Of a DNA stretch of 64,000 nucleotides, positions 39,111 to 40,702 are shown in pieces. A program made the translations under genes and the position numbers. The notes under the pieces were generated by a model. It searched no databases. It was not told the DNA's origin and worked only from the letters and a program-made list of their open reading frames with translations. Within the stretch, counting starts at the first letter, position 1. The number at the start of each line of letters is the position of its first letter. Source of the stretch: Escherichia coli (GTDB lineage Bacteria > Pseudomonadota > Gammaproteobacteria > Enterobacterales > Enterobacteriaceae); NCBI RefSeq assembly GCF_051903065.1, contig NZ_CP178439.1; one strand, given 5' to 3'.

Positions 39111-39410
39111 GGCACTGTTGCAAATAGTCGGTGGTGATAAACTTATCATCCCCTTTTGCTGATGGAGCTGCACATGAACCCATTCAAAGGCCGGCATTTT
39201 CAGCGTGACATCATTCTGTGGGCCGTACGCTGGTACTGCAAATACGGCATCAGTTACCGTGAGCTGCAGGAGATGCTGGCTGAACGCGGAGTGAATGTCG
39301 ATCACTCCACGATTTACCGCTGGGTTCAGCGTTATGCGCCTGAAATGGAAAAACGGCTGCGCTGGTACTGGCGTAACCCTTCCGATCTTTGCCCGTGGCA
39401 CATGGATGAA
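39111..39410 (+). mobile_element. tnpA: IS26 5' fragment (left IR plus first 79 codons of tnpA)
   Basis: IR at 39111; identity to IS26 ends after ...CCGTGGCACATGGATGAA. Confidence 0.9.
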
Positions 39411-39923
39411 AAGCCAAATCAGCGCCCAAAAGGTCTGCACTTGGATAAGCTGGAAACCTTGAATATTTTTGGTGTGCGCGCCAGCTATATGGCGGCATTT
39501 AAGGATTATCTGAAGGAAGAAGGTATCACCCCAAGTGATGAGATCATCGAGCTAGACTTCCCGACTCAGCCAAACCTGCCGACCAAAAAATTAAAGACAC
39601 TGGCGTTAAAGGATGGCTACAAAGACAACCAAAAGTTGGGGTTTAAGCGTACCCACTATCCTTGGTTGTACGAAATCCCAGCCGAGTTTGACGGTAAGAT
39701 AAAAACACCCGGGATCCTGCTCCTGGCTCTGCTCTCCTGTCTGCTGTTGCCCGCGCCGTCGCTGGGCCTGACGCTGGCGCAAAAGCTGGTTGAGACATTC
39801 CATATGATGGATCTCAACCAGCTTTATACGGTGTTGTTTTGTTTGTGGTTCTTAGCACTGGGCGCCATTGAGTATCTGGTGCTGCGCTGGGTGTGGCGTC
39901 GCTGGTTTTCGCTCGAACGCTAA
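39411..39923 (+). pseudogene. Membrane-protein 3' fragment fused in frame to the truncated IS26 tnpA (hybrid ORF 39156..39923)
   Basis: 170 open codons continuing from tnp26 into non-IS sequence with hydrophobic C-terminal helices. Confidence 0.3.
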
Positions 39924-39940
39924 ACCAGGAAGGGCGCGCC

Positions 39941-40282
39941 TCAGTGGGCGCGACTGTGGTTCTCTTTACGGTAGGCGCCCGGCGGCAGATTGAAGGTCCG
40001 GGTGAAGACGCGGGTAAAGGTCTGTTGCGAATCGAAGCCATACTTCAGGCAGATATCGTAGACCCGCTGATCGGTGTCACGCAGATCGCGGGCGGCCAGC
40101 AGCAGCTTCCTTTCGCGAATATAGCGCCCCAGGCTCTCCCCTTTATACTGTAAAAACAGCCGTTGCAGATGCCATTTCGAATACCCGGCATGGCGAGCGA
40201 TATCATCAATACGCAGCGGTTGATGCAGGTTGTCATCAATCCACTCGACGATAGTATCAATCACCTGAGCGGAAATCGTCAT
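39941..40282 (-). CDS. ramA: AraC-family global regulator RamA (Klebsiella/Enterobacter type)
   Basis: 113-aa protein MTISAQVIDTIVEWIDDNLHQPLRIDDIARHAGYSKWHLQRLF... recognised as RamA. Confidence 0.85.
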   Translation of the reverse strand: MTISAQVIDTIVEWIDDNLHQPLRIDDIARHAGYSKWHLQRLFLQYKGESLGRYIRERKLLLAARDLRDTDQRVYDICLKYGFDSQQTFTRVFTRTFNLPPGAYRKENHSRAH

Positions 40283-40312
40283 ATGCTCTCTCCTCTGATA
40301 CTGCACTGGCGC

Positions 40313-40702
40313 TTAGCGCCACCAGGCGTTAAATGATTGCGTCTTATCGGCGACCCACACCGGCTCGCCCTGCACAGGCGTCAGCAGACGCCAGGCCCTT
40401 CCTTCGCTGGCAGCCGCCAGCCGTTGATACGGTTCATCCCAGCTGTGTTTCGCCAAAACGAATCGTCCTGCATGCCCAGGCAGCACCGCGCGAGCGCGCA
40501 GGTCGTCGGCGGCCTGAGCTGTTTCATCCGGCATCATGTGAATATATTTCCAGTCCTGGTCATACTGCCCGTTCTCCATGATCGCCAGATCGACCGGACC
40601 AAATTCATCGCCTATCGCTTTAAAGTGCGGCCCATAGCCGCTGTCGCCGCTGTAATAAATCCCTAAATTCCACGTGTGTTTTTTATTAGCTTCAAAAATC
40701 AC
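40313..40702 (-). pseudogene. romA: romA (MBL-fold protein) 3' fragment upstream of ramA
   Basis: 129-aa C-terminal fragment co-oriented with ramA as in the romA-ramA locus; abrupt change to AT-rich DNA at about 40703. Confidence 0.55.

What the first reader, a model, noticed from the sequence alone, without database searches (positions are those of the whole stretch)
39111..40702. Klebsiella-type ramA with a romA fragment captured next to an IS26 fragment, without the ramR repressor
RamA is a global activator of acrAB-tolC whose expression is normally repressed by RamR at the romA-ramA promoter. Here only the 3' part of romA and intact ramA are present. ramR and the native promoter are absent, and the segment abuts AT-rich backbone at about 40703 and a truncated IS26 at 39111..39410. 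Expression would therefore depend on plasmid-derived promoters and escape RamR control, a plausible route to plasmid-mediated reduced susceptibility to tigecycline, fluoroquinolones and chloramphenicol.
Basis: partly seen in the sequence, partly recalled or inferred. Interest (0 to 1): 0.55.

Follow-up and report, generated by a model that had tools for sequence, protein, structure and literature searches.

The report
Known plasmid-borne ramA module (ramAp)
This is the already published "ramAp" element: a Klebsiella gene for the efflux-pump activator RamA, captured without its repressor by the insertion sequence ISEcp1, whose promoter drives it on multidrug-resistance plasmids and modestly raises resistance to many antibiotics.

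Summary
The core observation is real. Window 39709-40661 is a 953-bp piece of Klebsiella chromosome. It holds an intact ramA (39941-40282, - strand), the last 115 codons of romA, and a 5'-truncated DUF1158/ybdJ gene. A 301-bp IS26 fragment lies at 39111-39411. No ramR and no RamR operator occur anywhere in the 64-kb window.

The AT-rich DNA upstream of romA' is not plasmid backbone. It is the last 179 bp of ISEcp1 (40662-40840). Its right inverted repeat abuts romA' at 40661/40662, and its outward promoter (TTGAAA-18 nt-TACAAT) points at ramA.

The region is 100% identical to pR18.0877_278k, the IncHI2 plasmid in which ramAp was described (Hong et al. 2022). Published work already reports ISEcp1-dependent expression, acrAB activation and 2-4-fold MIC increases. 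The module is in about 100 PLSDB plasmids and about 1-3% of complete E. coli genomes.

Verdict: correct in essence, wrong on the promoter source, and already known.

The parts
39111..39411 (+). IS26 fragment: left inverted repeat plus the first 301 bp, which cover about the first 79 codons of tnpA. It cannot transpose on its own.
   Evidence: The 14-bp IR starts at 39111 with no partner IR. The fragment is 100% identical to the first 301 bp of complete IS26 copies.
39412..39709 (+). 298-bp internal fragment of a DEAD/DEAH-box helicase gene from Klebsiella IncFII-type plasmids. It is a relic of the site where the ISEcp1-ramA unit first landed.
   Evidence: 100% identical to L002 5001-5298, inside a 3.4-kb helicase gene next to a DNA methyltransferase gene. 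The same junction is present in all ramA-carrying variants examined.
39709..40661 (-). 953-bp segment of Klebsiella chromosome (K. pneumoniae species complex), GC 57%.
   Evidence: 953/953 identity to chromosomal loci L086 and L087, and 927/953 to K. pneumoniae ATCC 13883. The alignment ends exactly at 39709 and 40661 in every comparison.
39709..39923 (+). 5'-truncated DUF1158 (ybdJ-like) gene lacking its first 34 nt. It is fused in frame to the helicase and IS26 fragments.
   Evidence: The native gene is 249 nt (L087 5360-5608), of which 215 nt are retained. The chimeric ORF 39156-39923 is shown.
39941..40282 (-). ramA (ramAp): an intact 113-aa AraC/XylS-family activator of acrAB-tolC.
   Evidence: 100% identical to chromosomal RamA. 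NF012144 ramA_TF scores 226.6 bits against a cut-off of 180. [quoted passage not shown]
40313..40661 (-). romA 3' fragment (codons 257-371 plus the stop). It is a pseudogene that lacks the metal-binding HxHxDH region. It contains the native secondary promoter region pII and serves as the ramA leader.
   Evidence: tblastn matches RomA 257-372 at 100%. No NCBIfam hit for the fragment. RefSeq annotates a partial 'MBL fold metallo-hydrolase'. pII is described in PMC3117140.
40662..40840 (-). ISEcp1 remnant: the last 179 bp of the element, with the right inverted repeat at 40662-40675, oriented towards romA'-ramA. GC 31%.
   Evidence: The IRR sequence CCTAAATTCCACGT is matched exactly. The remnant is 100% identical to the ISEcp1 end upstream of blaCTX-M-55 in L003. 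It is contiguous with a complete 1,656-bp ISEcp1 in L098. PMC13253676 describes the same 179-bp fragment.
40736..40765 (-). ISEcp1 outward-facing sigma-70 promoter: -35 TTGAAA (40765-40760), 18-nt spacer with an extended TG, -10 TACAAT (40741-40736). It lies about 450 nt upstream of the ramA ATG.
   Evidence: The promoter scan gives 10 of 12 matches, the best site in the region. No terminator-like site lies on the - strand between the promoter and ramA. GFP reporter activity requires this fragment (PMC13253676).
40841..41134 (+). 3' fragment (last 97 codons) of an AraC-family regulator gene (HilD/YdeO/GadX-like) that abuts the ISEcp1 remnant. It is not part of the ramA unit and marks the deletion endpoint.
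Evidence: An intact 234-aa gene is present in E. albertii pEA35_1 (L094).
35026..46851 (.). 11.8-kb mosaic bounded by complete IS26 copies (35026-35845 with tnpA on the - strand; 46032-46851 with tnpA on the + strand). This is the segment that carries the module between replicons.
   Evidence: 99.99% identical to pR18.0877_278k over 11,827 bp, while the rest of the window is arranged differently. Its inner part, from the left IS26 to the peptidase M14 gene, recurs in an IncR plasmid of K. oxytoca.

Best explanation
The region is the published ramAp module. The steps below are marked as shown or inferred.

1. Capture (inferred from anatomy; supported by a relative that still has the complete IS). 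An ISEcp1 sat inside romA on the chromosome of a member of the K. pneumoniae species complex. The literature names K. quasipneumoniae. ISEcp1 mobilised the adjacent 953 bp (romA 3' end, ramA, most of the DUF1158 gene) by its usual one-ended transposition. The unit landed in a helicase gene of a Klebsiella IncFII-type plasmid.

2. Trimming and spread (inferred). IS26 events and deletions then trimmed both sides. One side was left with a 301-bp IS26 stub plus 298 bp of helicase gene. The other side was left with only the last 179 bp of ISEcp1. The module now sits in an IS26-bounded 11.8-kb mosaic that has spread mainly on IncHI2 plasmids.

3. Expression (promoter and orientation shown in the sequence; activity shown in the literature). 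Because the cut fell inside romA, ramR, the main promoter pI and the RamR operator were left behind. ramA is transcribed from the ISEcp1 outward promoter (TTGAAA/TACAAT) through the romA remnant.

4. Effect (from the literature, not testable here). RamA activates acrAB-tolC and micF in the host. This gives low-level (2-4-fold) decreases in susceptibility to phenicols, quinolones, tetracyclines including tigecycline, and azithromycin.
For: Identity with the described element:
- Window 39000-40800 is 100% identical over its full length to 101 plasmid records, including pR18.0877_278k, the plasmid in which ramAp was defined.
- Window 38001-43000 is 100% identical to that plasmid.

Anatomy:
- The 953-bp Klebsiella block has sharp ends at 39709 and 40661.
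- The ISEcp1 IRR lies directly at 40662, and the 179-bp remnant is 100% identical to ISEcp1 upstream of blaCTX-M-55.
- The promoter matches 10 of 12 positions, faces ramA, and no terminator-like site intervenes.

ISEcp1 as the capture agent:
- pQnrB4_020042 (L098) has a complete 1,656-bp ISEcp1 at the same romA junction, with the same IS26/helicase junction on the other side.

Loss of the repressor:
- No RamR homologue, no pI region and no operator-like palindrome are in the module or elsewhere in the window.

Protein:
- RamA is intact and above the NCBIfam equivalog cut-off.

Function, from the literature:
- The ISEcp1 fragment is required for reporter expression and pII alone is silent. RamAp binds acrAB, micF, sodA and flhDC upstream regions (PMC13253676).
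- MICs rise 2-4-fold and AcrAB-TolC expression rises (PMC9927516, citing Hong et al. 2022).
- acrA, acrB and tolC expression is 1.6-3-fold higher in ramAp-positive strains, and the MIC elevation was confirmed by conjugation (PMC11201502).
Against: - Nothing in the sequence contradicts this explanation.
- No expression or MIC data exist for this particular window, so function rests on 100% identity with tested constructs.
- The primary paper (PMC8765224) is not held in the library and was read only through papers that cite it.
- The transposition footprint is incomplete. The ISEcp1 left end is deleted here. In relatives with the left end, the flank does not match the helicase gene, so no 5-bp target duplication can be shown.
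- The candidate alternative right end matches the IRR at only 6 of 14 positions.
- The donor species could not be named with the tools. The two 100%-identical chromosomal contigs are identified only by assembly accession.
- Whether host RamR still acts through pII is untested (PMC9927516, PMC3117140).
Confidence: 0.93

Rival explanations
1. ramAp is not constitutive. It is driven or modulated mainly through the retained native pII region. In hosts with a chromosomal ramR (Salmonella, Klebsiella, Enterobacter) it would then stay partly under RamR repression and RamA autoregulation, with ISEcp1 only adding read-through.
For: The whole pII region (romA 3' end, 40283-40661) is retained. [quoted passage not shown] PMC9927516 states that RamR control of ramAp is uninvestigated. 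The 'pII is silent' reporter result was obtained in LT2, which has the native Salmonella ramR-ramA system (PMC13253676).
Against: pII alone gave baseline GFP, while the ISEcp1-containing fragment gave strong expression (PMC13253676). No RamR-type palindrome is detectable in 39709-40840, even allowing 3 mismatches. ramAp raises efflux expression and MICs in ramR-positive Salmonella isolates (PMC9927516, PMC11201502).
Confidence: 0.12
2. The module is a silent passenger. It would be debris of IS26/ISEcp1 reshuffling that hitch-hikes with the neighbouring resistance genes and contributes nothing to phenotype in this plasmid.
For: It is surrounded by gene fragments (IS26 stub, helicase, DUF1158, romA, AraC) and lies in a region with eight complete IS26 copies. 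The reported MIC effects are small, at 2-4-fold.
Against: ramA and the ISEcp1 promoter are both perfectly intact and conserved at 100% identity in more than 100 plasmids from six genera. Expression and phenotype were measured for the identical sequence (PMC13253676, PMC9927516, PMC11201502).
Confidence: 0.04
3. The Klebsiella segment abuts native AT-rich plasmid backbone at about 40703, and ramA is read from a backbone promoter.
For: GC falls from about 60% to about 33% around 40650-40750. An ORF starts at 40702.
Against: The junction is at 40661/40662. The AT-rich DNA is ISEcp1 (IRR, promoter, 100% identity to ISEcp1 next to blaCTX-M-55). The DNA beyond 40840 is a truncated AraC-family gene that is also found in plasmids of other replicon types, namely IncF and IncR.
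Confidence: 0.01

Closest known systems
ramAp of pR18.0877_278k, Salmonella Goldcoast IncHI2-IncHI2A plasmid (Hong et al. 2022, AAC 66:e01152-21; PMC13253676; PMC9927516)
   Same: Identical sequence: the 953-bp Klebsiella insert, the 179-bp truncated ISEcp1 upstream, the IS26 stub, and the flanking glutathione-synthase, IS4321, dqlB and AAA-ATPase genes. Identity is 100% over 38001-43000 and 99.99% over the 11.8-kb IS26-bounded block.
   Different: Only the wider arrangement differs. Outside 35026-46851 the window is rearranged relative to pR18.0877 at IS26 copies. The module itself has no difference.
ISEcp1-blaCTX-M / blaCMY-2 / blaOXA-181 transposition units (Poirel et al. 2003, cited in PMC13253676)
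   Same: The mechanism is the same. ISEcp1 uses its IRR-proximal outward promoter (TTGAAA/TACAAT) to express an adjacent chromosomal gene that it mobilised from an enterobacterial chromosome. The 179-bp remnant here is base-for-base the sequence found upstream of blaCTX-M-55 in L003.
   Different: The cargo is a transcription factor that reprogrammes host efflux, not a drug-inactivating enzyme. The leader is long, at about 450 nt through a pseudogene. The left end and the transposase of ISEcp1 are deleted in the window.
Chromosomal ramR-romA-ramA locus of the Klebsiella pneumoniae complex (PMC3117140; PMC4310594)
   Same: ramA, the romA 3' end with pII, and the DUF1158 gene keep their native order and sequence. 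Identity is 100% to L086 and L087.
   Different: ramR, the pI promoter with the RamR palindrome, and romA codons 1-256 are missing. The locus is on a conjugative plasmid and can enter species that have no ramA of their own, such as E. coli.
ramR loss-of-function or ramA-promoter replacement mutants of K. pneumoniae and Salmonella (for example PMC6713659; the S. Anatum delta-ramR isolate in PMC9927516)
   Same: The outcome is the same: de-repressed RamA, AcrAB-TolC overproduction, and low-level multidrug, tigecycline and azithromycin resistance.
   Different: Those are chromosomal, vertically inherited mutations. Here the de-repressed allele is horizontally transferable.

Membership tests
RamA family transcriptional activator (NCBIfam NF012144, AraC/XylS MarA-SoxS-Rob group) | Whole-protein score above the curated equivalog cut-off | tested here: met
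   226.6 bits against a cut-off of 180. SoxS, Rob and MarA models score far lower and fall below their own cut-offs.
RamA family transcriptional activator (NCBIfam NF012144, AraC/XylS MarA-SoxS-Rob group) | Small (about 113 aa) protein made of two HTH_AraC motifs with no ligand domain, and full length | tested here: met
   113 aa, 100% identical to chromosomal Klebsiella RamA. Pfam HTH_AraC and HTH_18 are recorded for the identical protein.
RamA family transcriptional activator (NCBIfam NF012144, AraC/XylS MarA-SoxS-Rob group) | Binds marbox-type sites and activates acrAB-tolC | not testable with these tools
   Reported for the identical protein by EMSA and expression assays (PMC13253676, PMC11201502).
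ramAp module (Hong et al. 2022) | 953-bp Klebsiella-derived insert carrying ramA | tested here: met
   Alignments to Klebsiella chromosomes span exactly 39709-40661, which is 953 bp.
ramAp module (Hong et al. 2022) | 179-bp IRR-end fragment of ISEcp1 immediately upstream, oriented towards ramA | tested here: met
   40662-40840 is 179 bp, with the IRR at 40662-40675 and the promoter on the - strand.
ramAp module (Hong et al. 2022) | No adjacent ramR | tested here: met
   tblastn with RamR and blastn with the donor-type locus find nothing else in the window.
ramAp module (Hong et al. 2022) | Carried on an IncHI2/IncHI2A plasmid | tested here: inconclusive
   Large parts of the window (1-25589 and 33026-54137) are 99.9-100% identical to the IncHI2A plasmid pR18.0877_278k. 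The replicon genes themselves were not looked for in the window. The same module also occurs on IncR plasmids, and shortened or rearranged forms of it occur on IncX1 plasmids and on chromosomes.
ISEcp1 (IS1380 family) transposition unit | Right inverted repeat ACGTGGAATTTAGG abutting the mobilised DNA | tested here: met
   Exact match at 40662-40675.
ISEcp1 (IS1380 family) transposition unit | Complete element with left inverted repeat and transposase gene | tested here: not met
   Only 179 bp remain in the window. A complete 1,656-bp ISEcp1 is present at the same junction in L098. The window copy is therefore an immobile remnant.
ISEcp1 (IS1380 family) transposition unit | 5-bp target-site duplication and a degenerate alternative right end at the far boundary | tested here: inconclusive
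   The left-end flank is lost or replaced in every copy examined. The sequence at the 39709 boundary matches the IRR at 6 of 14 positions, which is weak.
IS26 (IS6 family) | 820-bp element with two 14-bp inverted repeats and an intact tnpA | tested here: not met
   Only the left IR and 301 bp are present at 39111-39411. The eight other copies in the window are complete.
RomA (MBL-fold metallo-hydrolase) | Full-length protein with the metal-binding HxHxDH motif | tested here: not met
   Only residues 257-371 of 371 are encoded. The HDHYDH stretch, seen by eye in the full-length RomA printed, lies upstream of the cut. The fragment has no family hit.

The most novel reading that the evidence does not exclude
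The most novel reading left open concerns regulation of ramAp rather than its identity. The retained pII region might keep ramAp partly responsive to host RamR and RamA. In addition, the 255-codon in-frame chimera on the opposite strand (39156-39923: IS26 transposase N-terminus, helicase piece, DUF1158 membrane helices) might be transcribed from the IS26 tnpA promoter. It converges on ramA, so it could modulate ramA by transcriptional interference, or it could yield a truncated IS26 transposase fragment with activity of its own. ramAp output would then be host- and context-dependent rather than constitutive. A related open point lies outside the window. A shorter variant that lacks the ISEcp1 outward promoter is the commoner form in E. 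coli, and what drives ramA there has not been described in the papers read.
Probability: 0.1. Interest if true: 0.3.

Novelty: already known. Interest (0 to 1): 0.1.

Why it matters
ramAp is clinically relevant. It is a transferable regulator that turns up the host's own AcrAB-TolC pump. It raises MICs of azithromycin, ciprofloxacin, chloramphenicol and tigecycline by 2-4-fold, which is enough to cross breakpoints in Salmonella when combined with other determinants. It also gives E. coli a RamA it does not naturally have.

All of this has been published since 2022 for the identical sequence, so the window adds no new biology. This check contributes three things:
- It corrects the anatomy. The promoter comes from ISEcp1, not from plasmid backbone, and a helicase-gene relic marks the first landing site.
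- It shows that three deletion variants share one ancestral capture.
- It gives prevalence figures: about 100 PLSDB plasmids carry the full module, and 152 of 5,426 complete E. coli genomes carry at least part of the Klebsiella block.

Tried and rejected
- Naming the donor species. The GTDB representative scan returned K. pneumoniae ATCC 13883 at 97.3% nucleotide identity and nothing closer. No K. quasipneumoniae or K. variicola representative appeared in the list. The exact-protein look-up found chromosomal contigs with 953/953 identity, but they are labelled only by assembly accession. The species name therefore rests on the literature (PMC9927516, PMC11201502). RamA amino-acid identity does not discriminate, because loci with 97% nucleotide identity encode the same protein.
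- Looking for the ancestral insertion with both flanks and a 5-bp duplication. No PLSDB record joins the downstream half of the helicase gene to ISEcp1. The left-end flanks in L003 and L098 are unrelated DNA.
- Looking for a RamR operator in the retained DNA. None was found with up to 3 mismatches. Hits elsewhere in the window are at chance level.
- Looking for a terminator between the ISEcp1 promoter and ramA. None was found.
- Reading the primary paper. PMC8765224 is not held in the library.
- An Rfam scan of 35000-47000 found only AgrB, which is unrelated to ramA.
- The Leclercia ramA paper (PMC7716942) concerns a chromosomal gene and is not an earlier plasmid report.
- The idea that the DNA right of 40840 is IncHI2 backbone was rejected. 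It recurs in IncF and IncR plasmids.
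Full report
**What is in the sequence**

Reading 38500-41500 and listing ORFs shows a 113-codon AraC-type gene on the minus strand at 39941-40282. Just upstream of it on that strand lies an ORF at 40313-40702. A 255-codon ORF lies on the plus strand at 39156-39923.

GC content runs at about 55-64% between roughly 39600 and 40600. It drops to about 32-36% from about 40650 onwards.

The IS26 terminal repeat GGCACTGTTGCAAA occurs 17 times in the window. That is eight complete 820-bp copies plus one unpaired repeat at 39111.

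**Dissection of the region**

1. 39111-39411 is the first 301 bp of IS26, at 100% identity.
2. 39412-39709 is a 298-bp internal fragment of a 3.4-kb DEAD/DEAH helicase gene. That gene sits next to a DNA methyltransferase gene in Klebsiella/Raoultella IncFII-type plasmids (L002).
3. 39709-40661 is 953 bp of Klebsiella chromosome.
4. 40662-40840 is the last 179 bp of ISEcp1.
5. 40841-41134 is the last 97 codons of an AraC-family gene (HilD/YdeO/GadX-like). The gene is intact, at 234 aa, in an E. albertii IncF plasmid (L094).

**The Klebsiella block**

I looked up contigs that encode exactly this RamA protein. They are chromosome-sized contigs with the native order ramR (TetR_N, 193-194 aa) / romA (371 aa, MBL fold) / ramA / DUF1158.

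- Two of them (L086, L087) match the window at 953/953 bases.
- Four more match at 952/953.
- A second group, including the K. pneumoniae type strain ATCC 13883 (L005), matches at 97.1-97.3%.
- The K. oxytoca group, Raoultella, Enterobacter and Citrobacter match at 85% or less.

In every comparison the alignment stops at exactly 39709 and 40661.

The block holds three things:
- RomA residues 257-371. The HDHYDH metal site lies upstream of the cut, by eye in the RomA sequence.
- The whole of ramA.
- The DUF1158 gene, minus its first 34 nt.

Nothing else from the 10-kb donor-type locus is in the window. tblastn with RamR finds nothing. The ramR-romA intergenic region is absent, including its promoter and the palindrome ATGAGTGCGTACTCACTCAT. 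A degenerate search for that palindrome gives only chance-level hits far from the module.

RamA scores 226.6 bits on the NCBIfam RamA equivalog model, whose cut-off is 180.

Position 40702 is only the GTG start of an ORF. Its first 13 codons (MIFEANKKHTWNL) are ISEcp1 sequence. The true junction is 40661/40662.

- The right inverted repeat of ISEcp1 (reverse complement CCTAAATTCCACGT) occupies 40662-40675.
- The 179 bp are identical to the ISEcp1 end upstream of blaCTX-M-55 in another plasmid (L003 11371-11549).
- The consensus scan finds the ISEcp1 outward promoter on the minus strand: TTGAAA at 40765-40760, an 18-nt spacer with TG, and TACAAT at 40741-40736. This is 10 of 12 matches.
- No terminator-like structure lies between that promoter and ramA.

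So the promoter comes from an insertion sequence, as it does for blaCTX-M genes, and not from the plasmid.

**History inferred from relatives**

Three forms of the module share the same IS26-stub/helicase/Klebsiella junctions. They therefore descend from one capture event.

- pQnrB4_020042 (L098) has a complete 1,656-bp ISEcp1 at the romA junction.
- The window form keeps only the last 179 bp of ISEcp1.
- A short form (L003 IncX1, L099 E. coli chromosome) has an internal deletion. It joins the first 436 bp of ISEcp1 to romA at the position equivalent to window 40400, and so removes the outward promoter.

ISEcp1 is therefore the capture agent, and IS26 acted later.

A target-site duplication cannot be shown, because the left-end flanks have been replaced. 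The putative alternative right end matches the IRR at only 6 of 14 positions.

In the window the module lies in an 11.8-kb block between complete IS26 copies at 35026-35845 and 46032-46851. That block is 99.99% identical to pR18.0877_278k, while the rest of the window is arranged differently. Its inner part, from the left IS26 to the peptidase M14 gene, is also present in an IncR plasmid.

**Distribution**

- 101 PLSDB records carry the full 1,801-bp query at about 100% identity. The listed examples are 93-315-kb plasmids, most of them 230-315 kb, from Salmonella, E. coli, E. albertii, Shigella and Enterobacter.
- 104 records carry the romA/ISEcp1-IRR junction.
- 201 records carry the helicase fragment. 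Of these, 13 cover 80% or more of a 501-bp probe across the insertion site, which is consistent with an uninterrupted helicase gene.
- Among 5,426 complete E. coli genomes, 152 hold part of the 953 bp. All but 2 of the 179 places are on plasmids. Fifty-one genomes hold 80% or more of it.
- In a spread sample of 25 rows from that search, 8 were full length, 16 were the 692-bp short form, and 1 was a 207-bp remnant.

**What is already known**

The region is 100% identical to pR18.0877_278k. That is the S. Goldcoast IncHI2-IncHI2A plasmid in which 'ramAp' was named.

- PMC13253676 describes a 953-bp insert flanked by insertion sequences and preceded by a 179-bp ISEcp1 IRR fragment. A 578-bp fragment containing that ISEcp1 piece drives strong GFP expression in S. 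Typhimurium LT2, whereas the 397-bp pII-only fragment does not. RamAp binds the acrAB, micF, sodA and flhDC upstream regions.
- PMC9927516, citing Hong et al. 2022, reports increased AcrAB-TolC expression. [quoted passage not shown] It names K. quasipneumoniae as having an identical RamA.
- PMC11201502 reports 1.6-3-fold higher acrA, acrB and tolC expression in ramAp-positive strains. It counted 53 further plasmids in GenBank.
- PMC12137576 reports ramAp in a Canadian outbreak plasmid.

The primary paper (PMC8765224) is not held in the library.

**Nuance on RamR escape**

[quoted passage not shown] That places it inside the fragment retained here. The pII DNA bound purified RamR and RamA, although no clear palindrome was found in it (PMC3117140). 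PMC9927516 notes that RamR control of ramAp has not been tested. The claim of complete escape from RamR is therefore likely but unproven in ramR-positive hosts. In E. coli, which has no ramR, the question does not arise.

**Verdict**

The promoter attribution is wrong: it is ISEcp1, not plasmid backbone. The element is already described and experimentally characterised. Novelty: already known. Interest: low.

Noticed in passing
window 39156-39923 (+): A 255-codon ORF is an in-frame chimera of three unrelated fragments. They are the IS26 transposase N-terminus (about 79 codons from the tnpA ATG at 39174), 99 codons of helicase gene, and the last 71 codons of the DUF1158 membrane protein. It sits behind the IS26 tnpA promoter region and converges on ramA. 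RefSeq annotates only its last 82 codons as a 'DUF1158 domain-containing protein'.
   Followed up: partly
L003 6991-7426; L099 6694-6942 (related loci): This is a short ramA variant. An internal deletion joins the first 436 bp of ISEcp1 (left repeat plus the tnpA 5' end) to romA at the position equivalent to window 40400, which removes the ISEcp1 outward promoter. It made up 16 of 25 sampled E. coli hits and occurs on small plasmids of 27-138 kb and once in a chromosome. What drives ramA there was not described in the papers read.
   Followed up: partly
L098 5380-7035 (pQnrB4_020042, E. hormaechei IncHI2A+IncN): A complete 1,656-bp ISEcp1 with an intact transposase gene lies at the same romA junction. 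This is the least-decayed form of the module, and its left end abuts a qacE region.
   Followed up: yes
L003 about 7497-7878: About ten tandem copies of a roughly 38-bp GC-rich unit (GGCGGATTCCCACACGGCACCGGCGCCCGGCAAGGTG) lie between the ISEcp1 left end and IS26. They look like iterons or a minisatellite. Origin not examined.
   Followed up: no
window 37471-38934 (-): A 487-aa protein matches the eukaryotic-type glutathione synthase model TIGR01986 over its full length, but below the cut-off (236 bits against 329.8). It is an unusual gene for an enterobacterial plasmid and always travels with the ramAp block.
   Followed up: partly
window 42539-44440 (-) and 44546-45055 (-): A 633-aa ATPase with an acidic insert matches the Old, AriA and GajA models (OLD-family ATPase-Toprim). 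It is followed by a 169-aa protein annotated 'peptidase M14'. This may be a phage-defence gene pair inside the same IS26-bounded block.
   Followed up: partly
window 41399-41486 (-) and about 41811-41906 (+): Rfam AgrB antisense RNA (68.8 bits against a gathering score of 40) lies next to a DinQ-like type I toxin gene, dqlB, annotated in the identical plasmid. Together they form a type I toxin-antitoxin pair.
   Followed up: partly
window 40841-41134 (+): The C-terminal HTH half of a second AraC-family regulator (HilD/YdeO/GadX-like, AT-rich) is truncated exactly where the ISEcp1 remnant ends. The intact 234-aa gene occurs in an E. albertii IncF plasmid next to EAL-domain, H-NS and Hha genes.
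   Followed up: partly
whole window (IS26 at 849, 18780, 25590, 29956, 33026, 35026, 46032, 53318): There are eight complete IS26 copies in 64 kb. Relative to pR18.0877_278k, the window shows IS26-bounded inversions and rearrangements, with large blocks at 99.9-100% identity but in a different order.
   Followed up: partly
L090 (CP172521.1, 5.02-Mb contig) and L099 (E. coli chromosome, fim region): The ramA module also occurs integrated in chromosomes. L090 carries the whole window-type context, with one mismatch over the 1,161 bases compared (window 39600-40760). L099 carries the short form, inserted among IS elements that disrupt fimD and fimC.
   Followed up: partly
(method): The scan of GTDB species representatives with RamA returned no K. 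quasipneumoniae or K. variicola genome, although identical RamA proteins exist in many assemblies. Donor naming from that scan alone would have been misleading.
   Followed up: partly
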